Below, one piece after another: positions 7,403 through 49,669 of a DNA stretch of 64,000 nt; the stretch's first letter is position 1; every line of letters begins with the position of its first letter. Source of the DNA: Novosphingobium sp. Its GTDB lineage: Bacteria > Pseudomonadota > Alphaproteobacteria > Sphingomonadales > Sphingomonadaceae. The stretch spans positions 13,559 through 77,558 of the forward strand of contig NZ_JAYSBK010000004.1 in assembly GCF_041915465.1 (NCBI RefSeq), written 5' to 3'. Both the position numbers and the translations under genes were made by a program. The notes below the pieces were generated by a model, which did not search any database, was not told the DNA's origin, and saw only the letters and a program-made list of their open reading frames with translations.

Positions 7403-7419
7403 GGCCCGCGCCCCCGGGC

Positions 7420-9230: not shown

Positions 9231-9273
9231 AAGGCATCTTGACGATAATGAGTCTTTTTCCGTGAGGGGAGCG

Positions 9274-10986
9274 ATGGAGCAGGGAATGATTGAAGATCGG
9301 CACTCAGCGCAGGTGCTGATCGTTGGCGGTGGCATGGTGGGTATGATCGCGGCGCTGGATCTGGCGCAACGCGGGGTGGATGTCATACTCGCCGAGCAGG
9401 ACTCCTCCGAGCCACCCATGGTCCCGCGCGCAAATCACTTGTCGGCGCGGACAATGGAGATTTTCCGTGGTCTCGGTATCGCGGACAAGGTTCGCAGCCA
9501 GGGTCTGCCGGACGGCTTCGCCAATGATGTGGCGTTTGTGACGACCCTAACCGGATACGAGCTTGCACGCCTTCGCATTCCCAGTCGGCGCAAGCGCTTT
9601 AACAGCATCGGCTATATTGATTCCGACTGGCCGACATCCGAACCGGCGCATCGTTGCAACCAGATGTATTTCGAGCCGACGGTTCGCCAGGAAGTCATCG
9701 GCAATCCCCGAATTCGCACGCTCTTTGGGACACGAATCGATAACTTCGAACAGGACGCCGCGGCGGTGTTCGCAACGGGGCGCAATGATGCTGAGAGGAA
9801 GGCGGTTAGCATCCGCGCCGACTACGTGATCGGATGCGATGGTGGCAGCTCGACGGTGCGCAAGAAGATCGGAGGGGTCTTCGAAGGCGTTGACGTCATT
9901 TCCCGCAATCGCATGGCCTTGGTGCGTTCGCCCGAGTTGCTTGGGCGGCTTACTATGGAGCCGGCCTGGATGACTTGGTTCATCCTGCCCGAGGGGCATG
10001 GTTCGGTTCACGCCATCGACGGTAAGGAACTGTGGTGCTTCCACTGCACGCTGCCCGAAGGCGAAGAGGACTTCGAGAAGCTGGATCGCGACAAGGTGAT
10101 CCGGGCGGCGATGGGGCAGGACATACCCTATGAAATCGTTCATACTGAGGACTGGTTCGGCCGCCGCCTGATTTCGGACAGGTTTTCCGATGGTCGCATT
10201 TTCCTGAGCGGCGATGCCTCGCATATCTGGATCCCCATGGCGGGCTACGGCATGAATGCCGGCGTTTCCGACGTCACCAACCTGACGTGGAAGCTGGCGG
10301 CCGTGCTCGATGGCTGGGCCGATCCGGCGATCCTCGACAGCTATGCGGTCGAGCGTCGGCCAGTTACCGAGCAGGTCTCAAAGTTCGTGGCCAACATCGC
10401 CTACGAGAATTACGACGTGGACTTGCGGCAGAACCCGCCGCCGGAACTCTATGAGGACAGTGTCGAGGGTGAAGCAGTGCGCGCCGAGGCGTCGCGCTTC
10501 CTGACCGACGCAAACATGGGCCAGTTCAACTGTCCGGGGCTCAATTTCGGCGCGGTTTACGAAGGATCGTCGATCATCGTCCCCGACGGCGAGGCCCCGC
10601 CGCCGTTCGAGCTGGGCACCTACACGCCCACGACCATCCCCGGATGCCGCACGCCCCATTTTACGCTGGCCGACGGCACGCCGCTCTATGACCGGATGGG
10701 GCCGGGCTATACGCTGCTGCGAACCGATCCCGCCATTGACGTCGCAGCGCTTGTTGCTGCGGCCGAGGCGCGGAGCGTTCCGCTGACCGTGCTGGATATT
10801 TCCGCTGGTGCCGCCGATGGTGCCTATGCGCACAAGCTCGTCCTTTCACGGCCGGACCAATACGTCGCCTGGCGTGGCAATGCCCTGCCCGACGACGTGA
10901 TGGCGCTCGTCGATGTCGTTCGCGGCGTCGTTCCGGCCAATGGCGGAGCCGGACGCAAAGCGGCCCTGGTGGCCACGGCTGGCTGA
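9274..10986 (+). CDS. Single-component FAD-dependent aromatic monooxygenase (PheA/TfdB/RdmE-like, group A)
   Basis: [10 protein letters not shown] Rossmann motif, [28 protein letters not shown] and C-terminal RPDQYVAWR thioredoxin-like domain. Confidence 0.9.
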
Positions 10987-11000
10987 AGCGGAGAAAAGCA

Positions 11001-12011
11001 ATGGGCAACAATCCCAAACTTCGGATCGAGGCCGAGGGCATCAACGGTCTCTGGCCGATCCTGTGCACGCCGGCGAAGGACAATGCGCCGGACTGGTCGC
11101 AGAGCGATACGGTCGACCTCGACGAGACGGCCCGCGTGGTCGAGGCGCTGATCGAAGCGGGCGTCGACGGGCTGCTGAGTCTCGGCACCTACGGCGAAGC
11201 GCACAGCCTCCTCTGGGAGGAAAAGAAGGCCCTTGTCGGCTGCATCCTGGAGACGATCCGGGGGCGCATTCCCTTCTTTGCCGGATCGACGGCGCTCAAC
11301 ACGCGCGAAGTGGTCGCCCAGACGCGTGCGTTCCACGACATGGGCGTCACCGGGACCATGCTCGGCGTGCCGATGTGGTGCAAGGCCGACGTGCCGACCG
11401 CCGTGCGCTTCTATCGGGACGTGACCGAGGCCTGCCCGGATACCGCGTTGGCGATCTATGCGAACAGCGAGGCGTTCAAGTTCGAGTTCGGCCGGCCGTT
11501 CTGGGCCGAGATCGGCAAACTGCCACAGGCAGTCGCGACCAAGTATCTCGGCATCGGGATGCTCGCGACCGATCTCGAACTCGCACCGCGCCTGCGCTTC
11601 CTACCGACCGAAGCCGATTACTATGCCGCCGCGCGGATTGATCCCGAACGGATCACGGCGTTCTGGTCGAGTGGCGCGTTGTGCGGTCCGGCGACGCAAC
11701 TGGCGCTGCGCGACCGCGTCGCGGATGCCAGGCGCACTGGCGACTGGGCACCGGCCAAGGCCGTGGCGGACAAGATCCGCGCGGCCGACGACGGCCTGTT
11801 CCCGAACGGCAGCTTCGCGGACTTTTCCAAGTACAATGTCGGGCTCGAGAAGGGGCGGATGAACGCTGCCGGCTGGATGAAGGCCGGTCCCTCGCGCCCG
11901 CCCTATCATGTCGTACCCGAAGCTTATCTGGAAGGCGCGCAGCGCTCGGGGCGGGCCTTCGCGGCGTTGCACGCGGAGTTCTCGGCGCAAACGGCGGCCG
12001 AACTGGCATGA
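11001..12011 (+). CDS. nahE: trans-o-hydroxybenzylidenepyruvate hydratase-aldolase-like protein (NahE/DHDPS family), copy 1
   Basis: [23 protein letters not shown] and Schiff-base Lys in ATKY. Confidence 0.88.
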
Positions 12012-12074
12012 AGACGAAAGATCGCACGGGCGCGGTTGTGCCCTGGCGGGGTGTCGCGGGGAGGGGAAAGAGGA

Positions 12075-13127
12075 ATGTCCGCAGTTCTCGATAACGACCG
12101 CAAGGCGCAACTGGCCGGGCTGTATGAAGAAATGCAGCCCGACCATCTCTTCCCCCTGTGGGAAGTGCTGGCGAAGCTGGTCGTCCCCGAGCCGCAATCG
12201 CCGGCCATGCCGGCCCGGTGGTCCTATGAAACGATCAGGCGCTTCCTGCTGCGTTCGGGCGACCTGATTTCGGCCGAGGAGGCCGAACGGCGCGTGTTGA
12301 TCCTCGAGAATCCGGGGCTGCCGGGGCAGTCGGCGATCACGCCGCGACTCTATGCCGGCCTGCAACTGATCCTGCCCGGCGAAATCGCGCCCTGCCACCG
12401 GCACAGCCAGTCGGCGCTGCGCTTCGTGATGGAAGGCGAGGGCGCCTATACGGCCGTGGACGGCGAGAAGGCGTTCATGAATCGCTTCGACCTGATCCTC
12501 ACGCCCAACGGCCGCTGGCACGACCATGGGCACCCCGGCAACAAGCCGATGATCTGGCTCGACGGGCTCGACATCCCGATCGTGCGCTACCTCGACGCCG
12601 GCTTTTCCGATCGTCTCGACCAGCCGAGCTTTCCCGAAAGCGCGCCGCCCGCGAGCACGCAGATGCACTATGGCCGCAACATGCGCCCGGTTCGCTCGAT
12701 GGCCGCCGCCGACAAAGCGCCCGACGTGCCCTTGTTCCACTATCCTTACGCGCAATGGTCCGAGGCGCTTGCCGCCGTCTCGGCGCATGACGCACCCGAT
12801 CCTTGGCTCGGCCACGCGCTCGAATTTCTCAACCCGGCCGATGGCGGACCGGTGATGGCGACCGTCTCGGTCGGTGTGCGGCTGATCCCGGCGGGCTTCG
12901 AGACCGGCCTGCGGCGCTCGACCGAAGGCGCCGTCTACGTCGTGGTCGAGGGGGCGGGACAGGTCGAGGTGGACGGCACGGCCATCGAACTGGCCGCTGG
13001 CGACATCGTCGTCGTGCCGAGCTGGTGCGCCGCGCGCTGGCAGGCGCGCCAGCAGCTCGTGCTGTTCACCTATTCCGATCGCGGCGTGCTGGAAAAGCTC
13101 AAACTCTACAAGGAAGCCCTTGCATGA
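12075..13127 (+). CDS. gtdA: Gentisate 1,2-dioxygenase (bicupin)
   Basis: AERRVLILENPG, APCHRHSQSALRF, WHDHG and WLDGLDIP motifs. Confidence 0.92.
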   Translation: MSAVLDNDRKAQLAGLYEEMQPDHLFPLWEVLAKLVVPEPQSPAMPARWSYETIRRFLLRSGDLISAEEAERRVLILENPGLPGQSAITPRLYAGLQLILPGEIAPCHRHSQSALRFVMEGEGAYTAVDGEKAFMNRFDLILTPNGRWHDHGHPGNKPMIWLDGLDIPIVRYLDAGFSDRLDQPSFPESAPPASTQMHYGRNMRPVRSMAAADKAPDVPLFHYPYAQWSEALAAVSAHDAPDPWLGHALEFLNPADGGPVMATVSVGVRLIPAGFETGLRRSTEGAVYVVVEGAGQVEVDGTAIELAAGDIVVVPSWCAARWQARQQLVLFTYSDRGVLEKLKLYKEALA

Positions 13128-13819
13128 CCCTTCTGTTCGCGCCGCCGCCGCCGGTTCTCGTGCCGACCTCCGACGGGCATGACTATCCCGTTCGGCGCAT
13201 ATTCTGCGTAGGCCGCAACTATGCGGAGCACGCCCGCGAGATGGGATTCGATCCCGATCGCGAGCCGCCGTTCTTCTTCACCAAGTGGGCCGAGACCGTG
13301 GTCCTGTCGGACGCTGCCGTGCCCTATCCGCAGGCGACGTCGGACTTCCAGCACGAAGTCGAACTGGTGGTGGCGATCGGGAGCAGCGGTCGCGACATTC
13401 CCGTCGATGCGGCGCTCGACCACGTCTGGGGCTATGCCGTCGGGCTCGACATGACCCGGCGCGATCTGCAGATGGCCGCGCGCGCCAAGGGGCGGCCCTG
13501 GGATACCGGCAAGAACGTCGAGGCGTCCTCGCCGATCGGCACGCTACATCCGCGCGCCGCGCTCGGCGATGCGGCGAGCGGCACCATTGGCTTGACTGTC
13601 AACGGTGCGGTCCGCCAGAGAGCCGATCTTTCCATGCTGATCTGGAGCGTGCCCGAGGTCGTGGCCTTCCTGTCCGGCCTGTACCGGCTCGAGCCGGGAG
13701 ACCTGATCTATACCGGTACGCCCGCCGGTGTCGCGCCGGTGGTTGCCGGCGACGTGCTCGAAGCCAGCATTGCCGGCCTTGCACCGTTGCGCGTCACGAT
13801 AGCCCCCCCCGCGCCATGA
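13124..13819 (+). CDS. Fumarylpyruvate hydrolase (FAH family, NagK-like)
   Basis: RRIFCVGRNYAEH, HEVELV, DMTRRDLQ and DLIYTGTPAGV motifs. Confidence 0.9.
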   Translation: MTLLFAPPPPVLVPTSDGHDYPVRRIFCVGRNYAEHAREMGFDPDREPPFFFTKWAETVVLSDAAVPYPQATSDFQHEVELVVAIGSSGRDIPVDAALDHVWGYAVGLDMTRRDLQMAARAKGRPWDTGKNVEASSPIGTLHPRAALGDAASGTIGLTVNGAVRQRADLSMLIWSVPEVVAFLSGLYRLEPGDLIYTGTPAGVAPVVAGDVLEASIAGLAPLRVTIAPPAP

Positions 13820-14469
13820 CAGGGCCAGTCGCCAACGGCGCCTTGACGCTGCACGGCTATTTCCGGTCGAGCGCTTCGTGGCGCGTGCGGATCGCGCTGG
13901 GCCTGAAGGGGCTGGCCTACGAGCAGCGGACATATCGGTTGCGCGAAGACGATCACCGCAGCGCGGAATTCCTCTCGATCAACCCGCAAGGGCTTGTGCC
14001 GGCCCTTGAGGTTGGTGGGATGGTGCTGACCCAGTCGCTCGCGATTTGCGAATATCTGGATGAGGCGGTGCCCGAACCGCCGCTGCTTCCTGACGGACTC
14101 GTCGAGCGAGCGCTGGTGCGGGCCTTCGCCCAGGTGATCGCATGCGACATTCATCCGGTGCAGAATCTCAAAATTCTGCGCCGACTCAGTTCGCTCTGCG
14201 TTGACGATGCGGCGGTGCAGGGCTGGGCGCGCGACGTCATCGGCGACGGACTGGAGGTTTGCCTGCGCCTTCTGCCCCGGGAACGCGGGCGCTTCTGCTT
14301 CGGCGACTCGCCAACGCTCGCGGACATCTGCCTAATTCCGCAGATGGCAAATGCACGGCGCTTTGGTGTCGAAATGATCTGGCCCGCTCTCGAGAGCATC
14401 GAACAGCATTGCATGGCGCTGCCTGCCTTCGCCGATGCCGTTCCCGGTCAACAACCAGATTGCGAATAA
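13816..14469 (+). CDS. maiA: Maleylpyruvate/maleylacetoacetate isomerase (GST zeta, NagL-like)
   Basis: YFRSSASWRVRIAL, NPQGLVP and CDIHPVQN motifs. Confidence 0.92.
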   Translation: MTGPVANGALTLHGYFRSSASWRVRIALGLKGLAYEQRTYRLREDDHRSAEFLSINPQGLVPALEVGGMVLTQSLAICEYLDEAVPEPPLLPDGLVERALVRAFAQVIACDIHPVQNLKILRRLSSLCVDDAAVQGWARDVIGDGLEVCLRLLPRERGRFCFGDSPTLADICLIPQMANARRFGVEMIWPALESIEQHCMALPAFADAVPGQQPDCE

Positions 14470-39400: not shown

Positions 39401-40378
39401 TCAATCTCCTTGGGCTTGGGGGGTGACGGGAAGGATGCGGTAGTCGCCTCGGCTATCGAGCCCGGTGACCTCGGCGAGTTCGGCGAGCCGCCGCCCGGTT
39501 CCGTCGCGGACCAGCACGGCGATGACGTCGATGGTCTCGGCAATGAGCGCGCGCGGCACGGTCACCACGCTTTCCTGGATCAGCTGTTCCATGCGCCGCA
39601 GGGTGCCGAGCGCTGATCCGGCATGGATCGTTCCAACCCCGCCGGGATGGCCGGTGCCCCAGGCTTTGAGCAGGTCGAGCGCTTCAGCGCCGCGCACCTC
39701 GCCGATGGGGATACGGTCGGGCCGCAGGCGCAGGGCGGAGCGGACCAGGTCGGAGAGGGTGGCAACGCCGTCCTTGGTGCGCAGCGATACGAGGTTAGGT
39801 GCGGCGCATTGCAGCTCGCGGGTATCCTCGATCAGGACCACCCGGTCGTCGGTCTTGGCAACTTCGGCGAGCAGCGCGTTGGTTAGTGTGGTCTTGCCGG
39901 TCGATGTGCCGCCGGCGACCAGAATGTTCTTGCGGCCCGCAACCGCGCGGGCCAGCGCGTCAGCCTGCCAACGATCCATGATCCCTGCGGCGACGTAGTC
40001 GGCGAGCGCGAACACCGCTACGGCGGGCTTACGGATGGCGAAGCTGGGCGCGGCCACGACCGGCGGCAACAGCCCCTCGAACCGCTCCCCCGTCTCGGGT
40101 AGCTCGGCCGAAACCCGCGGGGCTTTGGCATGGACCTCGGTCCCAACATGGTGCGCGACCAGGCGGATGATCCGCTCGCCATCGGCGGCGGACATTCCGC
40201 TCCCCGTATCGGCGATCCCGGTTCCCAGCCGGTCGATCCACAGCCGCCCGTCGGGATTGAGCATGACCTCGATGACCGAGGCGTCTTCAAGCCAGGCGGC
40301 AATCTCCGGCCCGAGCGCCGTGCGCAGCATACGCGCGCCGCGCGATGATGCTTGGCTTTGGATCGGGATGACGCTCAT
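39401..40378 (-). CDS. trbB: Conjugal transfer ATPase TrbB/VirB11
   Basis: [23 protein letters not shown] and WGTGHPGG motifs. Confidence 0.96.
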
Positions 40379-40665
40379 GAAATGCCTCGTGTGCGCGGAG
40401 CAACCGACCATCGGCTGCGCTCGCGAGGCAGATCAAAAGGGCATCAGAATGGGGGAATGCAACAGCTTGTTGCGGTCAGGGTAGTGTGGCGAAATGGGAG
40501 AAACGGACGGCGACGCTGTGAACTACCCAATGGTAGGTCCCGCCTGAACAGCAGCCATCGTGAAGCCGTTCGTATATCCCCGTTACCTGTCATAGGTTGA
40601 CGCTTGCGCTGCTAGGGATTGGAGTAGACTTACGGGCGCGGACGCCTCGCATTTGCGCAGGCGCG

Positions 40666-43656
40666 TCAATGCTTGGTCTCGGGCCCACCCCATTCCCGTT
40701 TCATCTGCTCGAGTTCACGTTCTGCAATCCGCTGTTCCCATGCCATAGACTGCACCGCCGAGCGCGCCTGGGTTCTGGCGAACGCGGCAACCTTTTCGCG
40801 AGGGTCGTTGATCCAGGCTTGAAGGCGTCCGTGCTGTTCGACCTCAGCCTCGACCCGGCCGAACTGCCCCGTGACCACGCCCGTCTCGCCGAGTACGGCG
40901 ATGACCCGCCCCAGCATGTCGTCGCCCTGCTCAAGACGGTCGACGACGTCCATGCAGACGGCGTAAACCTCTTCGGCACCTTCATAGGGCTGTAGCGTCG
41001 AGAGCACGAACGAAAGGTCGTCGCGATCGCCGTTCGCGACGAAACGTCTCAGAGGATCTGCAATTTCCGGTATGAGCTGGGGGAAGATGTTTGCCACCAG
41101 CTTGCCGCCGAGGAAACGGTGGAGCGAAGGCTTCAGGCCGTACATGCGGCGCGCGGATCGCAGCAGCGTCTCGGGATGGCGCGACAACGGCCGCGGAAGT
41201 TCGTGGAGCCTGAACGGAACGGCGTCGAAGTAGCCACCGTCGCCGCGTCCGCGACCGATCCGGAACTCGAAGAATTCGAGCACCTGCACTGGAAAATTAT
41301 CAGCCGTCCGAGCAAGCGCATACTCGGCATTATGGTCTATCTTGGGCAGCTCGAGAAAAGACACCAAGAAGGCCGCGGTCTGGGCCTCATCCAAGGCCGC
41401 CACCATGCCGCTGTGGGACACCCACCATGCATTGACGATCCAGCCAGGCTGGCGCGCATCAGTAAACGAAGCGACTGCCGGCATCAGCACGTCGGCGATG
41501 AGTGATGGATCACCCTTCTTTTTGAAAGCCTGACCCGCAGCATTGACGAGCGCCAGTACTCCATCGTGCTCGCCAAGCTCACGCGCTCGCATCGAAAGGG
41601 AAGAAAGGCGCTCGGATCCATCACCGTCGCGCTCGCCGAGCCACGCGGCCATTTCCTGGAAGTATCGTCCCTGTCCCGAAAAGCGCGCCACTGCTAGATC
41701 AATGGCGTCGAGCCGCCCTGCAGCCTCGAGGCCGTGGAGCAGCGGCGTCAGTATGAGGCGGAGTGCATCGTCCATCTGATAAAGCAGGTGAACTGCTATA
41801 TCGGGTCTCGTCTCGGCAAGGTGGCGCGAAAAGCCCGACAAGGGAAGCCAATCCCCGATCCCGATCGGCTCTGCAAGATATCGACGCACCAACGCAGTCC
41901 AGGCCTCGGCGCCATCCGTGTCGATCTGCGCGACGATCGCGGGAAAGCCTTCCTCCCGCCACTTCTGCAAGCGCTCGGGGTCAAAATGCTCGGCGTCCCA
42001 CGCATCTGGGTGCACCGAATCGTGCCCTATTAGCGTCTTGTAGAGGATGAAATCCGGATCGGCGTTGAGCGTATCCCTGAGAGCCAGCAGTTCGCCCACG
42101 ATGGCCGTCTGCGCTCCGACCAATTCAGCGTTCGCAACCATGTCTTCGGGCAGTACGTGATACCAGGAATGCACATGGATGGCGTCTACCTCTATCTGCC
42201 TGCGTATCTCCAGGCGGCATTGCGGTGCCAATACGCGCTGGATCGCGGCGACCCGCGCTGCATCGTTCATAACGAGGACCCGAACCGCCTCGCTACCGCC
42301 ATAGTAAGGCGGTCGGCTCGCCTCGCGCAGCGCCGACAATATCTCGCCGCGTTCCTGATCGTCGGCCGAGACAGCAAGCAGGCTCTCGAGCAACCCGATC
42401 GCGTCGGAGCGAACCTGGCGGACGGCATCGGACGCGTTGACCGAGCCCTTGGCAATCTGGAACGTGTGAAAGTCGCCGCGGCTGATTCCGCCGACTTCTG
42501 ACGAAAGCACCTGCTGCATCATTGTGACGACGAGCTCGCGCGCGGCGGTCAAAGCATCAGTGCCGAGAGCGGCGAACACGTTTAGGATGAGGCGCTGAAC
42601 CGCAGGGCCATGTGTCCGCCATGTCCCGACGTCGTTCTCCGCCAAGCGTCGGCCAAGATCAAGCCAGAGGCGCCTTTCCTCGCCTTCCGATCGGCTGAAC
42701 AGGCGGATAAGCGCGTCGAGCGTGCGCGTCGGATCATAAAGCGAGTGGTGCTCGATGACTGGCGCCACCTTGCGCGCGACATCTAACCCATTCTCCCCGT
42801 CGAAAGTGCCGCTCGGATCGACGATCGGCTCCGCCGGCGATCTCCGGGTTCGCTCCACGACGTCGATCAGCACCGGCAGCTGTTCCAGGAAGCGGTCGCC
42901 TCTGTTCTCGAGGCGGGGGAGGACGACGTCGCTCAGCGTGTCCAGGGCCGCCGATAGGGCATTGTTGCTCTTCGAGGTCGAGATCGCCTCGATACACGGC
43001 TCGAAGTTTTGATCGGCCTGAATCAAGAGGGCAAAGTCGCGCGCGATCATGTCGAAGTCGTGCCCTGCGGGGAGCAGATGTTCGCGCATTACAGCGTCCA
43101 TCCGCTCCTTGATGCGTTCAAGCTGCTGCTTGTCCACATGCTTAAGGTCGGGCTCCTTGTAGATGGTGTCGTGACCCATCTCGGCCCAAGCATGCTTGAG
43201 CAGGGTCTGGACTTGGATTTCGATCTTGAGACCCGCGAACGGGCGATATTCCGCGAGAGCGGTTCGGTCGGGCTTGAGCTGGGCGGTATAGTTGGTGCTG
43301 TCGAACAGCCGAGTCTCTGTCTCTGTGCCAGGCACCGGGTGGTGCACGTTCACGTTCGAGACCTCAAAATTCTCGTGAATGATGCCTGATGCCAGGAAGC
43401 GCTCGACCTGCGTATTGGTCAGGAAGACGAGGCGAACGCCGGCCAAATCCCTGAGCTGCTCGTTGATCGCGGTGTCGAGCGAGATGCCGTGCTTCTCGAG
43501 CTTCTTCCTCAAGGATACCGCATCCTTCGCTCGCCCCGTGATGGCATGCGGCGTCATCGCATTCGCTTTGACGGCTCCCGCCAGGATCTGGCGGACCGCT
43601 TCGACAAATTCCGCGTAGAGGGCGCGTCCGCCGAGCTGATATTCCTCGAACGTCAC
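40666..43656 (-). CDS. 996-aa protein with N-terminal RelA/SpoT-type synthetase domain and long helical C-terminal region
   Basis: GRAK..S, DLAGVR, EIQVQT and HAWAEMGHDTIYK motifs in the first 170 aa; GTG start with GGAGG RBS overlapping the upstream stop. Confidence 0.85.
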   Translation of the reverse strand: MTFEEYQLGGRALYAEFVEAVRQILAGAVKANAMTPHAITGRAKDAVSLRKKLEKHGISLDTAINEQLRDLAGVRLVFLTNTQVERFLASGIIHENFEVSNVNVHHPVPGTETETRLFDSTNYTAQLKPDRTALAEYRPFAGLKIEIQVQTLLKHAWAEMGHDTIYKEPDLKHVDKQQLERIKERMDAVMREHLLPAGHDFDMIARDFALLIQADQNFEPCIEAISTSKSNNALSAALDTLSDVVLPRLENRGDRFLEQLPVLIDVVERTRRSPAEPIVDPSGTFDGENGLDVARKVAPVIEHHSLYDPTRTLDALIRLFSRSEGEERRLWLDLGRRLAENDVGTWRTHGPAVQRLILNVFAALGTDALTAARELVVTMMQQVLSSEVGGISRGDFHTFQIAKGSVNASDAVRQVRSDAIGLLESLLAVSADDQERGEILSALREASRPPYYGGSEAVRVLVMNDAARVAAIQRVLAPQCRLEIRRQIEVDAIHVHSWYHVLPEDMVANAELVGAQTAIVGELLALRDTLNADPDFILYKTLIGHDSVHPDAWDAEHFDPERLQKWREEGFPAIVAQIDTDGAEAWTALVRRYLAEPIGIGDWLPLSGFSRHLAETRPDIAVHLLYQMDDALRLILTPLLHGLEAAGRLDAIDLAVARFSGQGRYFQEMAAWLGERDGDGSERLSSLSMRARELGEHDGVLALVNAAGQAFKKKGDPSLIADVLMPAVASFTDARQPGWIVNAWWVSHSGMVAALDEAQTAAFLVSFLELPKIDHNAEYALARTADNFPVQVLEFFEFRIGRGRGDGGYFDAVPFRLHELPRPLSRHPETLLRSARRMYGLKPSLHRFLGGKLVANIFPQLIPEIADPLRRFVANGDRDDLSFVLSTLQPYEGAEEVYAVCMDVVDRLEQGDDMLGRVIAVLGETGVVTGQFGRVEAEVEQHGRLQAWINDPREKVAAFARTQARSAVQSMAWEQRIAERELEQMKREWGGPETKH

Positions 43657-44912
43657 GCAGCGCCTCCGCCTATGTAAATGGGCTCGTAAAGAGCGCCGGA
43701 CTCGTCACCCGTCCAAGTTTCCCCGCTAAAGCCGGTGGACCCGTCCTCGAAGCCGCTTGCGAGCCATAGCGCGTCCAGCATTCGCCGCAGCGCACCTGGC
43801 TGCACGGCATCAGATGAGGGAAGGTCGACCATACCGAGTTCGAGCCCGGGAATCCGGAGCATACGACTCGTAGTGCGAGCGCCCCTGATCTTCACATCCT
43901 GGAGATCATGCACGCTGGCCTCTAACGAAACAGGGCCTGAGGCACCGAGTTCCTTCAGCAGCGCTGCCAGTCGGCGCGCAGTCTCTACAATCGTTCCTTC
44001 CAAACGCCGCCCGTCGACAACGATATCAGGATCGTCCTGGATTCTAGCACCCACCGTGAGCGAGGCTTCGAGGCAACCCGGCTCAACGAGCCTTGTATAC
44101 CAACGGGCTTCGGGATTGAGCCCATCACTCCGCTGTTTGACAGGATCGTAGCTGGCCCATTGCCCGAGGCTCGTGATCGCCTCGGCACGCTCATAGGCTT
44201 CAGGCACGAAATGCAACTTCAGCTTCTTGATCGCTACGGGGTCAAGGTAGGCCACGGGCTTTGCAGGTGCCATCCGCATCACAAGTCTAGGGCCAGGAAC
44301 GATCGCCGGCACATCACCGCGACCCGTACGATTCCGGAGATCGGCTATCATTTCATGGGCAGCGCGCATTGCATCGGGCTGGACAGCGCCAGCCGCGCGC
44401 TTGGCCAGCGCATGGTCTATTGATGCAGCGAGATAGTCTTCCATCTTTTTAGCGAAGACCCCGCGTACCTTGCGCCGCTCGCCATCGGAAGCGCCTTCCG
44501 CAAGTCGCCACGATGCTGGGTGACGCAAATGGGCGAGGTCGAAGGGAAGCGCCGTAGGCTCCCCGAAAGCGGTGTTCATCACCAGGATGATCTGCTCGTC
44601 ATCCAGCAACGCGCGTGCGTACCCATATTCGGTCAAGACGTTCGGATTCGGCACCAGTTTCCCACCGCTTGTTTCGGCAACAAACGAGACATCGCCAACG
44701 AAGACCGCGCAGCGTCGGATCTTGCGAAGAATTGTCTCGCTGACAGGGGGCGTACCGGCGACACCGGCCGTATCGGAGTCGAGCATTAGGTCGAAGGGAA
44801 ACCGGCTCTGGATTGCCCCGATCGCTTCGTTGAGCGCGATGCGGCCGAATCGCCGGCAGACGTCGTCGTCACGATCGCTCTGCCATGAATAAAAGATACG
44901 AATCTCGTCCAA
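43653..44912 (-). CDS. TIR-like/nucleotide-binding domain protein with C-terminal domain of unknown function
   Basis: IFYSWQSD..FVGDVS..PNPNVLTEYGYA..IILVMN..LPFDL flavodoxin-like signature; TTG start at 44912 inferred. Confidence 0.7.
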   Translation of the reverse strand: MDEIRIFYSWQSDRDDDVCRRFGRIALNEAIGAIQSRFPFDLMLDSDTAGVAGTPPVSETILRKIRRCAVFVGDVSFVAETSGGKLVPNPNVLTEYGYARALLDDEQIILVMNTAFGEPTALPFDLAHLRHPASWRLAEGASDGERRKVRGVFAKKMEDYLAASIDHALAKRAAGAVQPDAMRAAHEMIADLRNRTGRGDVPAIVPGPRLVMRMAPAKPVAYLDPVAIKKLKLHFVPEAYERAEAITSLGQWASYDPVKQRSDGLNPEARWYTRLVEPGCLEASLTVGARIQDDPDIVVDGRRLEGTIVETARRLAALLKELGASGPVSLEASVHDLQDVKIRGARTTSRMLRIPGLELGMVDLPSSDAVQPGALRRMLDALWLASGFEDGSTGFSGETWTGDESGALYEPIYIGGGAA

Positions 44913-45108
44913 ATACCTACACCTCTCATTCGATCCTGCGATGATAGGATTGTCACCCGCAAGCACGCAGCGATCGGTATCTTGCCAGATCGGAAGGAGT
45001 TTTCCTGCGCTTTCTATGCACTCGTGTACGCATGTGGGACCGTAGTGCTCATAATCACGGAATTTCAACGCGATTTTGGCATAATGTTTGGCCACGCTCG
45101 CACGCGCG

Positions 45109-46557
45109 TTAGCGCGACAAATCGCTGGGGCGTGCGAGGCCTCCTTGGAGCAGGCAGGTAACAACATAAATCGGACTCGTACCGGTCTCGACCGGGATGA
45201 TCGTCAATCCGTCCGTCACAGGAAACGGAGGGGTTGATTTCACGCTGCAATCCAGCACGCACAACAAGGCGACACGACGGCCGCTTCCAACCGCGTAGCT
45301 CGCCGCTTGCCCGGCAAACTGCTTACAATCGTCCGGTAGGAGACGCTTCGATTGCTCGGATTTAAGCTCGATCCTTATACCCCTGAACGTCAGGTCGACC
45401 TTGCCTCCGGTGACCTGTCCCTGAACCTCAAGCTCACTGCCAATGGCGGCGTTGGCACGCAGGAATGACTGAAAATCGGCTTGGAAAGCGGCTTCATCGA
45501 TGGGCTTGGGATAGCGTTTGTCCTGGACCGCTTGTCCCATCAGATTGCCGACTGGGGTGAGAAGCGCCAAGAGGTCGCAAATATCCGTCTCCGAGATTAG
45601 CGGTTCGAGCCGCAACCGCTCGCGTAACTGAACGATCTTCGCGTCCAGTTCGCCATAACCGGTAAGCGGATGGCGCGACGTGTCGGTCCCATCGAGGCGC
45701 AACGTTCGCTGTCCCGCGACGACGACAGTTTCGTCGCGTTCGAGCCGAGGCTGAAACTCGGCCGCGTAGCGAAATTCGAGCGGTCGCGCGTTGAAGCCCT
45801 GTGACGCATGCAGCGCCATCCGGCCCTGGCGCTGAAATGTGAAGGGCGCGGGTCCGTCAGGGCGGGGAAATTCGAAGGTCGGGAAATCCCATGTGCTTGT
45901 CGGCTCGATTGAAACCGGCGCAATAACCAATCGCTCGGCGTCGTCGGGCCAGCGCGAAACACGGATAGTCAGATCGAGATCGTGAACCTGCCCCGCTGAA
46001 AGACTGTGGCATGTCTCGGCGGGTTTGCCGTCAATAGAAAATTCCAGAAACGCGACGGCAATCTCGTCCGGTTTCACGGGCAGGTCGTCTGCGGCAGGCG
46101 GGCCGAACCCGCCGCGATCCTCGATACCGAAAATTGCGACGGGCATTTCAAGCTCCGCTATCGCGGCGCCGAGAATTGGCACAGCGTCGACGTCGAGCTC
46201 GCCGTCAATGGGCGCGAGGGCCGTGACGAGCGCCACAGCATAGGCACCATGGGCATCGTCGCTAGCGAGACTGCGATAGCGGAGCCGGGCGGCGCGCAGG
46301 AACCGATCAGCGTCGACTGCGGCTATATGGACGGCTTCGCTCCAGTCGGCGAGCAGGCCGAGGATTTCGAGCGCGGCGGCGAAGGTTCGCCAATCCTTCG
46401 CGGCCTCCGCCTTGCCATAGAGCTCGGCCGCTGCCGCAACCGCTTCGGCCCGCGCACGCAACTCGGCGCCCCCGGCATAGCGCGGCTGTGCTGTGACCGC
46501 TTCGATCGCAGCGACCCTAGAAGGGAAGGTTTGAGCGAGCACGACGTTCACGCTCAT
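45109..46557 (-). CDS. Hypothetical protein with C-terminal PD-(D/E)XK nuclease-like domain
   Basis: DEAAFQADF..GGKVDLTF.GIRIELKSE..QAASYA fits the E..D..ExK..QxxxY restriction-like nuclease motif; beta-rich middle region. Confidence 0.65.
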   Translation of the reverse strand: MSVNVVLAQTFPSRVAAIEAVTAQPRYAGGAELRARAEAVAAAAELYGKAEAAKDWRTFAAALEILGLLADWSEAVHIAAVDADRFLRAARLRYRSLASDDAHGAYAVALVTALAPIDGELDVDAVPILGAAIAELEMPVAIFGIEDRGGFGPPAADDLPVKPDEIAVAFLEFSIDGKPAETCHSLSAGQVHDLDLTIRVSRWPDDAERLVIAPVSIEPTSTWDFPTFEFPRPDGPAPFTFQRQGRMALHASQGFNARPLEFRYAAEFQPRLERDETVVVAGQRTLRLDGTDTSRHPLTGYGELDAKIVQLRERLRLEPLISETDICDLLALLTPVGNLMGQAVQDKRYPKPIDEAAFQADFQSFLRANAAIGSELEVQGQVTGGKVDLTFRGIRIELKSEQSKRLLPDDCKQFAGQAASYAVGSGRRVALLCVLDCSVKSTPPFPVTDGLTIIPVETGTSPIYVVTCLLQGGLARPSDLSR

Positions 46558-49123
46558 CCTCCTTATCCCGTGCGTCCGCTGCAGCGGCTTGCGCCCAAGC
46601 GCGGCCGGCCGCCTCGATCGCGTCGAGGTCCCGCGCGGCAACCGCCGCTTCGAAACGGAGCGCGAGCTGCGGCCATTGCAGCAGCGTGCGCCGCCTGCGC
46701 AGCCGCACCGAATCGCCGTTGCTGCTCACCAGGGCAGTCACAAGCGCGTCCGCCTGTTGTGTCATTCCTGCAGCCAGAAATGCGTCGACGACGCCCAGCG
46801 CGGTTTGCAGCTCGATGTCGAGAACCGAGATCGCAGCGTCGTGAAAGGCTTGCGCGTTGGCCTCCAGCCCTTCCGGGCTTACCTTGTGCAGGAGGTTGAG
46901 TGCTTTATCCGAGTTATTGTAGCGGTCCGCCAGATGGGGGATCATGCGCGCGGCTAGCGTGGCAAATTCAGGCTCTGTACCAAGGCTGTAAGAGAGGGAC
47001 AGGATGTCGGATCGCAGGAAGAGCGGGTCGACATCCATCGCGACCTCGATCAGATAGCGCCTGACCGCGCCGCTCGCGTTTCCGAACAGATCGGCCATCC
47101 CGGCGAGGATACGCACGCATTTCGCTAGAAAATGATCCTCGTTGGACTGGACTCGATAATAACGGATCAGGTTCAAAATGGCGTGAGCCGCGTTGACCCG
47201 GTAGGGTTCGGGAAGGATCGACCGGTGAAAGGCTTCAACGGCGGTTTTGTGAACCGCAACATATTGGTCCCACAGCAGTGCGCCGAACGCCTCAAACAGA
47301 AGGTCGGGAACATTAGCCCGACTACGATAAGGGAGTTCACCGACTGCCGTCGCTGCATAAGAGCGACCAAGCACCGACGGTCCGACAAGGGCGGCGTAGA
47401 GATGGGGTAAAAGCTGTTTCAGCCCCGCCAAGTCACGCGAAAGCTCCTTCGTCGCTCCCAATAGGGCACCTCGAAGATTGTCGCGTCCTTCCGGAATCGT
47501 CTCGAACATGCCGATGATTTTCGCCACCGACGGTTCGTCGCCGGCGGCGCCCTCACTCGCCCATTCGACCAACTGCTCCATCAGGCCGCGCATCACCGAG
47601 CGGCGGGTATTTCGTTCGATTGCGACCAGCGTGTTCTCAGCCGGCTCGGTCATCGCCACGTCAAGCTCAGCCAGTCGATCGTCGAGTAGGAACAGAGCAC
47701 CGATGAAGGCCTCGAGCTGTGCGCGAACCACATGCTCCAGCCCTTTCGAACCGGCGCGAAAGGCCGAGGTGACCTCCTCGAGGACCCTGTCATCATGTTC
47801 GATCGTCGGCGCCCAAACGAGCCGGGTCAGCGCGAGCGCGTGCCGATTGGAGGTCGCCGGGACGGAGGGCTTGTCATAGCCCACATGGACGGCAAGCGCA
47901 TAAACTTTCAGGATCCGGGCGCGATGCGATGCGGGCGCCCCCTCGTTCAGCGCTTGGAGCTGCGCGTCGACATCCTCCGGCGCGGCATCGAAAGCATCGT
48001 TCAGCGCCTCGGCGAGATCGGGCAACCGATCATCCTCATCCTTCAGATCGGCGACAAGGCTGGGCGCGCGGACATAGACCGATGTCAAGGTGAGAAGAAT
48101 CGGGGCCGCCGCCTTCGGGTCCTCAGCGTGCAAGACATGGAGACCTCGACCGGCGCGTTCGAGGGAGGACCGCTTTCCGCTCAGCAACATCTGTTCGATG
48201 GCCGCGATGACGGCCGCGGGAAATCGGGAATAGAGCGCGTAAAGGAATGCGGGATCGCGCGGAATCCTGGGCTCGTCATCACCGTAGAAAAATTCTCGAT
48301 CGTCTGGGTCGGCGAGATCGATGGCGGTAGTAAGAATGGACGCGACGCGATCGGGGGAGACGGCGTCGAGACGCGGAAGCAGCTTTTCCACGGCAATGCG
48401 TGCAGGATAGCCGCGACGCAGGACAGTCATCGCCAGCTCGACGATCATGCCATCCTCGGCGCCAACCGCATCGAGAATGACAAGTGCGGCCTCAGCGAAC
48501 CAAGGCTGACTGCCAGCCAGCGCGAAGACATATTGGACCAGCTCGGGCGTGAAATGCTCGGGAGCCAAGCGCGCACTTTGCGTCACGCGTTCGAAATTTT
48601 CTTTTGACCGATCGGCGTCGAACCCGCCGATGTCCTCCAGCAAGGTGCGTGCGATGGGGCCAAGTGTGGGCAACAATCCTGCACGGATTCCCTTGCGTTC
48701 CTCGAGAGCTTGCGCCGCAAGGCGCGCCTCGGTCTCCGCCCGGGCTTCGAGGACAGCTTTCTCACGATCGCGATCAGCAATGATCTCCATGAGGTTCGGC
48801 AACCTAAGAGGCTTGCGATGACCGCAATTCGCGCAATTTCGATCATAGAATTCGACGATGGCGTCCCGCAGATCCCAGCATGCCATGCCGCCCTCGGGTG
48901 CATGGTCGCAGCGCATGCCATGATGGCCGATCGGAAGACCGGTCATCTGCTCGATCATCCCCGTTCCGCCGAACTTCTCCACGCGGGCGTGCGCGCAGTA
49001 ATTGCGGACAAGCGCCATGGTGTCGCGATTACGCTCCCCGGCTTTGATGGTGTCTGCAATGTCGCGCATCTGCCCCGTCGAAATCGTTCCGTGGGATATC
49101 GGTTCGACAGGGCTCGTCTTCAA
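46517..49123 (-). CDS. Large hypothetical protein: Cys/His-rich N-terminus, coiled coil and HEAT-like helical repeats
   Basis: 868-aa open frame with CAH..CDH..C..CANC cluster and Leu/Ala-rich amphipathic helices; start may be ATG 49069. Confidence 0.65.
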   Translation of the reverse strand: MKTSPVEPISHGTISTGQMRDIADTIKAGERNRDTMALVRNYCAHARVEKFGGTGMIEQMTGLPIGHHGMRCDHAPEGGMACWDLRDAIVEFYDRNCANCGHRKPLRLPNLMEIIADRDREKAVLEARAETEARLAAQALEERKGIRAGLLPTLGPIARTLLEDIGGFDADRSKENFERVTQSARLAPEHFTPELVQYVFALAGSQPWFAEAALVILDAVGAEDGMIVELAMTVLRRGYPARIAVEKLLPRLDAVSPDRVASILTTAIDLADPDDREFFYGDDEPRIPRDPAFLYALYSRFPAAVIAAIEQMLLSGKRSSLERAGRGLHVLHAEDPKAAAPILLTLTSVYVRAPSLVADLKDEDDRLPDLAEALNDAFDAAPEDVDAQLQALNEGAPASHRARILKVYALAVHVGYDKPSVPATSNRHALALTRLVWAPTIEHDDRVLEEVTSAFRAGSKGLEHVVRAQLEAFIGALFLLDDRLAELDVAMTEPAENTLVAIERNTRRSVMRGLMEQLVEWASEGAAGDEPSVAKIIGMFETIPEGRDNLRGALLGATKELSRDLAGLKQLLPHLYAALVGPSVLGRSYAATAVGELPYRSRANVPDLLFEAFGALLWDQYVAVHKTAVEAFHRSILPEPYRVNAAHAILNLIRYYRVQSNEDHFLAKCVRILAGMADLFGNASGAVRRYLIEVAMDVDPLFLRSDILSLSYSLGTEPEFATLAARMIPHLADRYNNSDKALNLLHKVSPEGLEANAQAFHDAAISVLDIELQTALGVVDAFLAAGMTQQADALVTALVSSNGDSVRLRRRRTLLQWPQLALRFEAAVAARDLDAIEAAGRAWAQAAAADARDKEDERERRARSNLPF

Positions 49124-49255
49124 TGGTGAGGCGATTTAGCCGGGCGCTCCCTCGTTCATCTTTATCGTCAGGTGCGAAGCCAGGCTAACGATCAGCTGCT
49201 ATCCTGATTTGCTCCTCAATTCCGATCAGTCGCCAAGGTCCAACAGAGCGGGCAA

Positions 49256-49669
49256 TTATCTCCCCTTTCGGCCCATTTCCTCAAACACCCCTTTTCCATT
49301 CTCCAATTTCCGCGCCAACGCCTCGACAAAGCCCTCGTAGCGTTCCCTGCCTTGGGCCTGCGCCGCCGCCATCGCGGATTCCGGTAACGGCGGGTTGGCA
49401 GTGAGCCAGAACCTCACGAACAGCGCCAGAGCCTCATTCGTCACCTCGATCTGAAACTCCAGCCGCTCGTTCTGCTTGGTCAGCCGGTCAAGGCGCCTTG
49501 TGACGGCCGCCTCCATGCGCTCAGAGCCATCGGGCGAAAGGAACGAGGCAATGGCGGCCTCGACAATCGACGCCTGCGTCGCGCGCTTGCGGATCGCGAA
49601 CTCCGCAAGTTGCCGGGAGATGTCCGGCGGTAGACGGAACGTGTGCTTGATGCGGTTGCCGGATTTCAT
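49256..49669 (-). CDS. CopG/ribbon-helix-helix protein of the ICE backbone
   Basis: SIVEAAIASFLSPD..TRRLDRL..EALALFVRFWLT motif; GTG/ATG start overlaps the traG stop. Confidence 0.85.
   Translation of the reverse strand: MKSGNRIKHTFRLPPDISRQLAEFAIRKRATQASIVEAAIASFLSPDGSERMEAAVTRRLDRLTKQNERLEFQIEVTNEALALFVRFWLTANPPLPESAMAAAQAQGRERYEGFVEALARKLENGKGVFEEMGRKGR

What the first reader, a model, noticed from the sequence alone, without database searches (positions are those of the whole stretch)
40666..49123. Four-gene cassette (helical sensor, PD-(D/E)XK nuclease, TIR-like, RelA/SpoT fusion) in the copG-trbB slot: candidate undescribed anti-phage system
Four co-oriented non-backbone genes (868, 482, 419 and 996 aa) interrupt the traG-copG-trbB backbone, a known variable slot in such ICEs. 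They form two overlapping pairs (41-nt and 4-nt overlaps) separated by 196 bp. Three carry domain classes typical of abortive-infection effectors (DNA cleavage, NAD or nucleotide cleavage, alarmone synthesis or tRNA pyrophosphorylation), each fused to a large unknown region that could act as a sensor. I cannot match the combination to CBASS, Thoeris, Pycsar, Avs or CapRel: no cyclase, STAND NTPase or SIR2 domain is visible.
Basis: partly seen in the sequence, partly recalled or inferred. Interest (0 to 1): 0.88.

Follow-up and report, generated by a model that had tools for sequence, protein, structure and literature searches.

The report
Defence island: Olokun plus two loners
The four genes are real cargo in a conjugative element, but they are a small anti-phage island of three separate modules: the known Olokun pair, a stand-alone TIR-like protein, and a stand-alone alarmone-synthetase/HEAT-repeat fusion from an undescribed modular family.

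Summary
Four co-oriented minus-strand genes (868/850, 482, 419 and 996 aa) sit between traG-copG and trbB, with the stated overlaps and 196-bp gap.

The interpretation as one undescribed four-gene system does not hold.
- Genes 1-2 match PADLOC OloA (1e-54) and OloB (5e-39), so they are the named Olokun system.
- Genes 3 and 4 do not co-occur with each other or with Olokun beyond relatives 80-94% identical. None of 80 loci with gene-4 homologues has Olokun, and only one has a non-adjacent gene-3-like domain. None of 15 gene-3 loci and none of 4 other Olokun loci has the other genes.

Gene 3 is a CAP12/Pycsar-type TIR-like domain plus an unknown C-terminal domain. It lies alone in defence islands.

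Gene 4 is a RelP/RelQ-like small alarmone synthetase fused to a ~800-aa HEAT solenoid. That solenoid is homologous (hhalign E 7e-143) to stand-alone ~800-aa proteins. These always follow a PIN_12, DUF4365-nuclease or other effector gene carrying a shared adaptor tail, which indicates effector swapping.

The 8.7-kb block moved as one piece, inverted, into the same slot of a diverged ICE. A related plasmid carries QatABCD in that slot.

Verdict: a defence hotspot holding one known system and two plausible but untested single-gene candidates.

The parts
40555..49244 (-). 8.7-kb cargo block (defence island) that moves as one piece
   Evidence: blastn to L081 is 90-94% identical exactly over 40555-49244. 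Beyond these borders the ICE backbone is only ~64% identical, and the block is inverted relative to it. G+C is lower than in the flanks. No terminal repeats of 9 nt or more at the borders.
46517..49123 (-). oloA (Olokun subunit A, helical/adaptin-like); 868 aa from TTG, or 850 aa from ATG 49069
   Evidence: PADLOC OloA 1.2e-54, residues 35-743 on model positions 11-497 of 596. 33% identical to the OloA next to an OloB in another genome, L210.
45109..46557 (-). oloB (Olokun PD-(D/E)XK nuclease subunit), 482 aa, overlaps oloA by 41 nt
   Evidence: PADLOC OloB 5e-39, model positions 30-551 of 556. C-terminal motif VDL...IELK. OloB model match in the own genome 9.7e-39.
44913..45108 (.). 196-bp spacer between Olokun and gene 3
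   Evidence: Sequence read. GAGAGG/AGGTG lies upstream of TTG 44912. No promoter or terminator above the shuffle expectation.
44403..44912 (-). gene 3, N-terminal TIR-like (CAP12/Pycsar-effector type, NDT-like) domain, residues 1-170, invariant Glu95 in PNPNVxxExGYA
   Evidence: AlphaFold model with pLDDT 89.8. Foldseek hits: SfSTING TIR 1.6e-4, DNPH1 7e-4, nucleoside 2'-deoxyribosyltransferase 1e-3. BFVD CAP12/Pycsar TIR protein 4.2e-8. Pfam CAP12-PCTIR_TIR is below threshold at 0.042. Invariant columns.
43656..44315 (-). gene 3, C-terminal alpha/beta domain of unknown family, residues ~200-419, probable sensor
   Evidence: Confidently modelled but without a Pfam, PADLOC, NCBIfam or PDB sequence match. 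The N-terminal domain occurs with many other C-termini.
43147..43656 (-). gene 4, N-terminal RelA/SpoT-homologue (small alarmone synthetase) domain, residues 1-170
   Evidence: Pfam RelA_SpoT 2.7e-10. PDB profile hits RelP/RelQ (YwaC 1.4e-9). Foldseek SAS1/RelQ with TM 0.74-0.77. Family-invariant R42, K44, D70, R75, E146, Q148, H155, E159, H162, Y166.
40669..43122 (-). gene 4, long helix plus ~800-aa HEAT/ARM alpha-solenoid, residues 179-996, probable sensor/autoinhibitor
   Evidence: Model with pLDDT 88.3. Foldseek hits MMS19, CAND1, transportins and importins at 1e-5 to 1e-6. hhalign to solenoid-only proteins gives probability 100, E 7e-143 over 787 columns.
49256..49669 (-). CopG-like backbone gene; the block starts ~11 bp after its stop codon
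   Evidence: tblastn finds 198 plasmids, annotated as CopG family and next to traG. Border read.
39401..40411 (-). trbB (T4SS ATPase), backbone gene downstream of the block
   Evidence: Pfam T2SSE 6.3e-36.

Best explanation
The 8.7-kb block is a compact anti-phage defence island in the cargo hotspot that follows traG-copG in this family of conjugative elements. It holds three functionally independent modules.

1. Olokun (OloA-OloB). An adaptin-like helical subunit forms a complex with a PD-(D/E)XK nuclease that cuts DNA. The mechanism is taken from the literature, not shown here.

2. Gene 3, a single-protein module. A CAP12/Pycsar-type TIR-like domain with an invariant Glu is the effector. By analogy it is an NAD+ or nucleotide glycohydrolase. 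A family-specific C-terminal alpha/beta domain would hold it inactive until a phage cue is sensed. This mechanism is inferred.

3. Gene 4, a single-protein module. A RelP/RelQ-like pyrophosphokinase domain is fused through a long helix to a ~800-aa HEAT solenoid. The solenoid would act as phage-protein sensor and autoinhibitor. Once triggered, the synthetase would stop growth by making a toxic alarmone, (p)ppGpp or (pp)pApp with ATP drain, or by pyrophosphorylating tRNA 3' ends, as in CapRel-type abortive infection. This mechanism is inferred.

Shown here: the family identities, the folds, the independence of the three modules, the homology of the gene-4 solenoid to the partner of separately encoded nuclease effectors, and the mobility of the block as a unit. 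Not shown: any protection, any enzymatic product, any trigger.
For: Olokun: PADLOC OloA 1.2e-54 and OloB 5e-39, adjacent, co-oriented and overlapping. The same order and a 50-nt overlap are seen in L210. Literature on the OloA-OloB complex and nuclease: bioRxiv 10.1101/2025.07.10.664194.

Independence: 80 genome loci with gene-4 homologues (27-55% identity, +-10 kb) contain no OloA or OloB. One contains a gene-3-like N-terminal domain, 5 kb away on the other strand. No neighbour family occurs in more than 7 of 80 loci. Flanking genes vary in distance and strand. 15 loci with full-length gene-3 homologues have no gene 4, no Olokun and no shared partner. 4 other OloB-bearing genomes have no gene 3 or 4 within 10 kb.

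Defence context: gene-3 homologues lie next to type III R-M, AbiJ + Gabija, NERD, DUF4365-TPR, MNT-HEPN and NACHT-like genes. The nearest neighbours of gene-4 homologues include SIR2-pAgo, DISARM DrmD/DrmMII, Dsr2, PifA, type I and II methylases, SIR2_2, KAP NTPase and integrases. The same ICE slot carries QatABCD in a Sphingobium plasmid. In L081 the block abuts a DNA methyltransferase gene.

Modularity of gene 4: its residues 179-996 align end to end with ~800-aa solenoid-only proteins (E 7e-143). The gene immediately upstream of those proteins (1-5 nt gap or 4-nt overlap) encodes PIN_12 (5 distinct contexts), DUF4365 (1) or another domain (L193). All of these share a ~100-aa C-terminal adaptor.

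Modularity of gene 3: its TIR-like domain is joined to many different C-termini.
Against: No experiment supports defence by genes 3 or 4, and neither matches a validated PADLOC system. Enrichment of defence genes near gene-4 homologues was not compared with a background. Many neighbours are housekeeping genes or have no Pfam hit. The commonest variant (P0085) sits between imuAB-dnaE2 and czc efflux genes, not next to defence genes. Genes 3 and 4 overlap by 4 nt and all four genes travel together in L081 and L093, so some functional coupling in this lineage is not excluded. By sequence the RSH domain resembles housekeeping RelP/RelQ and no solved toxSAS. Its acceptor-site and ExQxRT motifs differ from the canonical ones (EIQVQT), so the product is unknown. 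PADLOC-DB here is the 2023 version, and newer catalogues could already name genes 3 or 4.
Confidence: 0.72

Rival explanations
1. Genes 3 and 4 form a two-gene signalling system, with Olokun beside it. On sensing phage, the RSH domain of gene 4 makes a nucleotide messenger. The C-terminal domain of gene 3 binds that messenger and switches on its TIR-like NADase, in the manner of CBASS, Pycsar or Thoeris.
For: 4-nt GTGA overlap suggests translational coupling. The pair is kept in L081 and L093. The gene-3 TIR is of the CAP12/Pycsar effector type, which in known systems is fused to a ligand sensor. In relatives of gene 4, an effector gene sits in exactly this upstream position.
Against: No adjacency outside 80-94%-identical copies: 0 of 80 gene-4 loci and 0 of 15 gene-3 loci. 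Gene 3 lacks the C-terminal adaptor shared by the genuine upstream partners of the solenoid. Gene 4 already carries its own fused effector.
Confidence: 0.1
2. All four genes are one integrated system.
For: They are co-oriented, tightly packed and transferred as one 8.7-kb block between ICEs whose backbones are only ~64% identical.
Against: Genes 1-2 are a complete, already named two-gene system that occurs elsewhere without genes 3 and 4. The three modules never co-occur at family level. A 196-bp spacer separates the pairs. Defence islands commonly move as blocks without functional linkage (general knowledge).
Confidence: 0.04
3. Genes 3 and/or 4 are not immune genes. Gene 4 would be an element-borne alarmone synthetase that tunes host stringent physiology or ICE transfer. 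Gene 3 would be a nucleoside 2'-deoxyribosyltransferase/DNPH1-like nucleotide-salvage enzyme.
For: The RSH domain is closest to housekeeping RelP/RelQ. The P0085 variant lies among stress and metal-resistance cargo. Gene 3 also matches NDT/DNPH1 folds. Many neighbours of gene-4 homologues are ordinary genes.
Against: Distribution is patchy and rare (2 of 401 and 9 of 401 sampled genomes), with variable accessory contexts. Solenoid homologues pair with PIN_12 and Mrr-like nucleases, which fits a toxic-effector logic. Gene 3 repeatedly lies inside clear defence islands, and its C-terminal domain is swapped among relatives. These are hallmarks of conflict systems.
Confidence: 0.14

Closest known systems
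Olokun (OloA/OloB; named in Millman et al. 2022, my recollection; biochemistry in bioRxiv 10.1101/2025.07.10.664194)
   Same: Genes 1-2 match both PADLOC models strongly. They have the A-then-B order, overlapping reading frames, a large helical subunit A, and a subunit B with an N-terminal region plus a C-terminal PD-(D/E)XK motif.
   Different: A divergent member: bit scores are modest (185 and 133), and identity to another proteobacterial Olokun is only 33-39%. It is carried on an ICE. Nothing suggests a different mechanism.
CapRel(SJ46)-type fused toxSAS toxin-antitoxin defence (PMC9712102)
   Same: Gene 4 is a single polypeptide with an N-terminal RelA/SpoT-homologue synthetase and a C-terminal non-catalytic region that could sense phage proteins and autoinhibit. 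It stands alone without a separate antitoxin gene.
   Different: By sequence the RSH domain matches RelP/RelQ but no solved toxSAS. The C-terminal part is an ~800-aa HEAT solenoid, not a small pseudo-zinc-finger domain. The protein is about three times larger. Substrate and trigger are unknown.
PADLOC candidate PDC-S33
   Same: The RSH domain of gene 4 matches this single-gene candidate model (1.2e-9).
   Different: Only model positions 41-175 of 349 are matched. The solenoid (80% of the protein) is not part of that model.
TIR-domain effectors of CBASS/Pycsar (CAP12, PF10137) and TIR-STING
   Same: The N-terminal domain of gene 3 has this fold, and its best hits are these proteins. Family members give repeated weak hits to PF10137 and to PADLOC CBASS TIR effectors. 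It has a conserved Glu in an NDT/TIR-like motif.
   Different: Below Pfam threshold (14.3 vs 24.7 bits). No cyclase or any conserved partner gene. The C-terminal domain is not SAVED, STING or a cNMP-binding domain by sequence search.
PIN_12 (PF16289/DUF4935) proteins, e.g. the integron cassette Brc24 'Cosus' with anti-phage activity (bioRxiv 10.1101/2024.07.02.601719)
   Same: PIN_12 proteins are the commonest separately encoded partner of homologues of the gene-4 solenoid.
   Different: Cosus is described as a single PIN12 protein. Here PIN_12 carries an extra adaptor tail and is paired with an ~800-aa solenoid. In gene 4 the PIN_12 role is taken by a fused RSH domain.

Membership tests
Olokun | Protein matching the OloA model | tested here: met
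   PDLC03925 OloA 1.2e-54, 184.7 bits, residues 35-743
Olokun | Protein matching the OloB model | tested here: met
   PDLC03926 OloB 5e-39, model positions 30-551 of 556; also 9.7e-39 in the whole-genome search
Olokun | Two genes adjacent and co-oriented, A upstream of B | tested here: met
   46517-49123 then 45109-46557 on the minus strand, 41-nt overlap; the same layout in L210
Olokun | PD-(D/E)XK active-site motif in OloB | tested here: met
   C-terminal ...GGKVDLTFRGIRIELKSEQ... gives D-x9-E-x-K, read from the translation; no structural check
Olokun | Adaptin-like alpha-solenoid fold of OloA and 2:2 OloA-OloB complex | not tested
This rests on the HMM match and the literature.
Olokun | Protection against phage | not testable with these tools
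   Needs a plaque assay
CapRel / toxSAS fused toxin-antitoxin | RelA/SpoT-homologue synthetase fold with conserved catalytic residues | tested here: met
   Pfam 2.7e-10; Foldseek TM 0.70-0.77 to SAS1/RelQ; invariant R42, K44, D70, R75, E146, Q148
CapRel / toxSAS fused toxin-antitoxin | Sequence membership in a toxSAS subfamily (CapRel, FaRel, PhRel, Tas1) | tested here: not met
   Profile and single-sequence searches of all PDB chains up to E = 10 return only RelP/RelQ-type SAS. This test is limited to solved structures.
CapRel / toxSAS fused toxin-antitoxin | Small C-terminal pseudo-zinc-finger antitoxin/sensor domain | tested here: not met
   The C-terminal 800 aa form a HEAT/ARM solenoid
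CapRel / toxSAS fused toxin-antitoxin | tRNA 3'-CCA pyrophosphorylation or (pp)pApp synthesis, phage-protein trigger | not testable with these tools
   Biochemistry and escape mutants are needed
CBASS / Pycsar / Thoeris signalling systems | Signal-generating cyclase or ThsB-type partner conserved next to the TIR effector | tested here: not met
   No cyclase or SIR2 in the block. Gene-3 homologues have no conserved neighbour. The gene-4 RSH is adjacent only in 80-94%-identical copies of the block.
CBASS / Pycsar / Thoeris signalling systems | TIR domain of the CAP12/Pycsar effector family (PF10137) | tested here: inconclusive
   14.3 bits against a cutoff of 24.7. Relatives score up to 19.7 bits. 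At fold level the best viral match is a CAP12/Pycsar TIR protein, 4.2e-8.
PADLOC PDC-S33 | Full-length match to the candidate model | tested here: not met
   Only model positions 41-175 of 349 are matched, on residues 11-158 of 996
   they are together only in L081 and L093, which are 80-94% identical copies of the same block

The most novel reading that the evidence does not exclude
Gene 4 represents an undescribed, widespread family of modular immune systems built on one ~800-aa HEAT-solenoid sensor. The solenoid alone finds 911 clusters (50% identity level) at E <= 1e-3. The sensor is armed with interchangeable effectors. Either an alarmone-synthetase domain is fused to it (as here), or the gene just upstream encodes a PIN_12 RNase-like, Mrr-like (DUF4365) or other effector that docks through a shared ~100-aa adaptor tail. 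In addition, gene 3 would be a new single-gene TIR-like abortive-infection protein with a swappable sensor domain.
Probability: 0.4. Interest if true: 0.65.

Novelty: new variant of a known kind. Interest (0 to 1): 0.45.

Why it matters
If the reading is right, three things follow.

1. The site after traG-copG in this ICE/plasmid family is a defence hotspot that can be mined. It holds Olokun plus two candidates here, QatABCD in a Sphingobium plasmid, and an ATPase/helicase set in Methylocystis.

2. The RSH-solenoid protein would extend the CapRel principle, a synthetase toxin held in check by its own sensor, to a much larger HEAT-repeat sensor and a different RSH lineage.

3. The same solenoid partnered with PIN_12 or Mrr-like nucleases gives a natural effector-swap series. 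Such a series is useful for asking what the solenoid senses and how it gates chemically unrelated toxins.

The Olokun part adds only another divergent, ICE-borne member of a known system.

Tried and rejected
- One four-gene system: rejected by co-occurrence.
- The gene-4 solenoid as a relative of OloA: hhalign A4 vs OloA gave probability 0.6%. One solenoid-only protein has a weak OloA hit of 2e-4. This is not enough to claim homology.
- The NERD 1089-aa protein downstream of a gene-3 homologue as a solenoid relative (effector swap for a g3 partner): blastp found nothing.
- Terminal repeats or att-like sites at the block borders: none of 9 nt or more.
- Promoter/terminator scan of the block: not above the shuffle expectation.
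- The C-terminal domain of gene 3: no hit in Pfam, PADLOC, NCBIfam or PDB sequences. Whole-model Foldseek hits were dominated by the N-terminal domain.
- Random sampling of 400 genomes was inefficient for these rare families.
- A background control for PADLOC hits among random genes was prepared but not run.
- Literature searches for PDC-S33, for an alarmone synthetase with HEAT repeats in defence, and for DUF4935 in defence found no description of these modules.
- The 184-aa fragment flanking L081 had no PDB match. It is 75% identical to plasmid genes annotated as DNA methyltransferase.
Full report
**1. Observation**

The four ORFs exist on the minus strand as described (translations).
- Gene 2 starts at ATG 46557, with AAGGAGG directly upstream.
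- Gene 3 starts at TTG 44912, which matches the N-terminus of 66 aligned homologues.
- These starts give 482 and 419 aa, overlaps of 41 nt and 4 nt, and a 196-bp spacer.
- Gene 1 may start at ATG 49069 (850 aa), as called in a 94%-identical relative, rather than at TTG 49123.

The flanks are conjugation backbone: relaxase, TraG coupling protein, a CopG-like gene (annotated as CopG in 198 plasmids), then TrbB, a VirB3-like gene and TrbE. G+C drops from 0.64-0.68 in the flanks to 0.57-0.63 in the block.

**2. Genes 1-2 are Olokun**

PADLOC models OloA and OloB match at 1.2e-54 and 5e-39, with near-full coverage of the OloB model. The order, co-orientation and overlap are those of the system. OloB ends with a D-x9-E-x-K motif.

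A search with the OloB model found it in 6 of 401 sampled Pseudomonadota genomes, including this one.

**3. The modules are independent**

- Gene 4 has a well-defined family of ~1000-aa proteins (116 hits). In 80 genome loci with 27-55% identical homologues and 10-kb flanks, tblastn found no OloA or OloB. It found a gene-3-like N-terminal domain in one locus only, 5 kb away on the other strand.
- Clustering all flanking ORFs gave no neighbour family present in more than 7 of 80 loci. The nearest genes vary in distance and strand.
- Full-length gene-3 homologues (36-57% identity) in 12 metagenome loci and 3 genome or assembly loci have neither gene 4 nor Olokun nearby, and share no partner.
- Four other OloB-bearing genomes have no gene 3 or 4 within 10 kb.
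- The four-gene arrangement recurs only in L081 and L093 (a fragment holding only genes 2-4), where the genes are about 80-94% identical to the window's.

**4. The block moves as a unit into a defence hotspot**

L081 matches the window at 90-94% exactly over 40555-49244. Outside this stretch its CopG-like and TraG genes are only 63% and 55% identical in protein. They also abut the opposite end of the block, so the block sits in the same place, about 11-13 bp after the copG stop, but inverted. No terminal repeats were found. On its other side in L081 lies the start of a gene 75% identical to plasmid DNA methyltransferases.

In the closest plasmid (Sphingobium sp. YC-XJ3, CopG 65% identical), the slot after traG-copG carries the annotated QatABCD anti-phage system. 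In Methylocystis parvus it carries an AAA ATPase, a DUF2235 protein and a DEAD/DEAH helicase.

**5. Gene 3**

The AlphaFold model is confident (pLDDT 89.8).
- Residues 1-170 form a TIR/nucleoside-deoxyribosyltransferase-like flavodoxin fold. The best PDB matches are the TIR domain of SfSTING (1.6e-4), DNPH1 and nucleoside 2'-deoxyribosyltransferases. The best viral-protein match is a CAP12/Pycsar-effector TIR protein (4.2e-8).
- Pfam CAP12-PCTIR_TIR is below threshold for gene 3. It recurs weakly among relatives, as do PADLOC CBASS TIR-effector models.
- Invariant residues include D13, D45/D47 and E95 within PNPNVxxExGYA. By analogy with TIR/NDT enzymes, E95 is the candidate catalytic Glu (inference).
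- Residues ~200-419 form an alpha/beta domain with no detectable relatives.
- The N-terminal domain is joined to many different C-termini in ~410-540-aa proteins, the pattern of a conserved effector with a swappable sensor.
- Contexts are defence islands and mobile elements: type III R-M and a PDC-M54A-like giant protein (L173); AbiJ + Gabija + a trypsin-like protease on a repABC plasmid (L174); an ICE relaxase and a NERD protein (L176); DUF4365-TPR, MNT-HEPN, and an HNH/NACHT-like 1467-aa protein.

**6. Gene 4**

The model is confident (pLDDT 88.3).
- Residues 1-170 are a small-alarmone-synthetase fold, with TM 0.70-0.77 to RelQ/SAS1 and 2be3. Profile hits go to RelP/RelQ (1.4e-9).
- The nucleotide- and Mg-binding residues are invariant across 57 sequences (R42, K44, D70, R75, E146, Q148), so the enzyme is probably active.
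- The motif is EIQVQT instead of ExQxRT, and the acceptor loop differs (alignment), so the product cannot be predicted.
- No solved toxSAS (CapRel, FaRel2, Tas1) is retrieved even at E = 10.
- A long helix (residues 176-227) leads into ~770 aa of HEAT/ARM solenoid resembling MMS19, CAND1 and karyopherins.

An exhaustive phmmer search with residues 200-996 found 911 representative clusters. Most are ~1000 aa with the solenoid starting near residue 200. There is also a class of 790-820-aa proteins that lack the RSH domain. At least 75 further clusters of this class come from Woeseia, Variovorax, Nevskia, Methylophilus, Nitrospirae and a Nitrososphaera MAG. Profile-profile alignment shows that gene-4 residues 179-996 equal the whole solenoid-only protein (probability 100, E 7e-143).

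In every solenoid-only locus with upstream sequence, the preceding gene ends 1-5 nt before, or overlaps by 4 nt, the solenoid gene.
- It encodes a PIN_12 (PF16289) protein in six distinct contexts: L183/184, L185/186, L194, L195, L196 and viral contig L192.
- It encodes a DUF4365 Mrr-like nuclease in L189.
- It encodes a protein with a different N-terminus in L193.
- All of these share a ~100-aa C-terminal adaptor region.

None of these proteins is in PADLOC v2. PIN_12 is a VapC-like PIN nuclease family (PMC5499597), and a PIN12 integron protein protects against phage. Gene 4 is thus the fused-effector form of a modular 'effector + HEAT solenoid' family. Gene 3 lacks the adaptor, which argues against it being the solenoid's partner.

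**7. Context of gene-4 homologues**

Among 114 nearest neighbours of at least 180 aa, PADLOC found the following: SIR2-pAgo (E reported as 0), type I methylase (4e-274), DrmD (4e-189), Dsr2 (7e-160), DrmMII, PifA, PDC-S35, Hp1, mad2 and cytosine methylases.

Pfam found integrases (3), SIR2_2 (2), C5 methylases (2), KAP NTPase and N6_Mtase, but also ordinary metabolic genes. The most widespread variant sits between imuAB-dnaE2 and czc genes on sphingomonad plasmids. The association with defence and mobile DNA is clear but was not tested against a background.

**8. Mechanism**

The Olokun mechanism is taken from the literature. For genes 3 and 4 the proposal is single-protein abortive infection: sensor-gated TIR-like glycohydrolase, and sensor-gated pyrophosphokinase. 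It rests on the following:
- domain architecture;
- conservation of the catalytic residues;
- absence of partner genes;
- swapping of the sensor (gene 3) or of the effector (gene-4 family);
- genomic context.

It is an inference. The main rivals are a lineage-specific g3-g4 signalling pair, supported only by the 4-nt overlap and joint transfer, and non-immune roles.

**9. Comparison and novelty**

Half of the cassette is an already named system. Gene 4 works most like CapRel but fails two of its defining features (toxSAS lineage and the small C-terminal sensor), so it is not a member. Its N-terminus matches only part of PADLOC candidate PDC-S33. Gene 3 is a TIR-like protein of the CAP12/Pycsar effector type, without a signalling partner.

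I found no paper describing an RSH-HEAT fusion or a PIN_12 + solenoid pair as a defence system. However, PADLOC-DB here dates from 2023 and the paper library is incomplete.

Overall this is a defence island with one known system and two candidate variants of known themes. The modular solenoid family is the most interesting lead.

Noticed in passing
L183:5013-8391, L185:3875-7391, L194:4976-8418, L195:4935-8430, L196:5051-8382, L189:1032-4204, L192:783-4102, L193:4141-7349: A conserved two-gene module. An effector protein (PIN_12 in most, DUF4365 in L189, an unknown N-terminal domain in L193) ends in a shared ~100-aa adaptor. It is followed within 0-5 nt (18 nt in L193) by an ~800-aa HEAT solenoid homologous to the C-terminus of gene 4. 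The module is not in PADLOC v2. It occurs from Gammaproteobacteria to Nitrospirae and on two IMG/VR contigs.
   Followed up: partly
L197 (Sphingobium sp. YC-XJ3 plasmid NZ_CP117472.1) 7133-14602; L199 (Methylocystis parvus pMpar-1) 4952-14345: The slot right after traG-copG holds QatABCD in one relative, and an AAA ATPase + DUF2235 + DEAD/DEAH helicase set in another. The site behaves as a defence hotspot of this ICE/plasmid family.
   Followed up: partly
window 42673-43020 (gene 4 residues 213-328): The family profile gives a weak match (E 4.5e-4) to the HeLo domain of the fungal HET-s/HET-S 'small s protein' (2wvq, 2wvn). This may be helical-composition noise. It did not appear among the top 50 Foldseek hits.
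   Followed up: no
L177-L182 (e.g. AP018520.1 15768-34755): One gene-4 variant (P0085, 43% identical) is listed in 356 blocks of the contig collection, in many Sphingomonadaceae. It always lies between an imuA/imuB/dnaE2 mutagenesis cassette and czc heavy-metal efflux genes on plasmid-like DNA.
   Followed up: no
window 49069-49123: The start of oloA is ambiguous. TTG 49123 (868 aa) has no visible ribosome-binding site. ATG 49069 (850 aa, MRDIADT...) is the start called in the 94%-identical relative L081.
   Followed up: partly
L176:5965-12570: In another ICE of this type, a gene-3 homologue (54% identical) sits directly after the DUF3363 relaxase. A 1089-aa NERD-domain protein follows it, 22-28 bp downstream. 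This protein has no PADLOC hit and may be a further cargo defence candidate.
   Followed up: partly
L081:3-554 (minus strand): In the relative that carries the inverted block, the gene on the far side begins a protein 75% identical to plasmid-annotated DNA methyltransferases that often lie next to VapC or HigA genes. The island there is probably larger than the four genes.
   Followed up: partly
L173:7082-7876 and 9270-10064: In Sphingopyxis sp. EG6 the gene-3 homologue is flanked on both sides by co-oriented 264-aa genes with no Pfam or PADLOC hit, downstream of a type III R-M-like pair.
   Followed up: no
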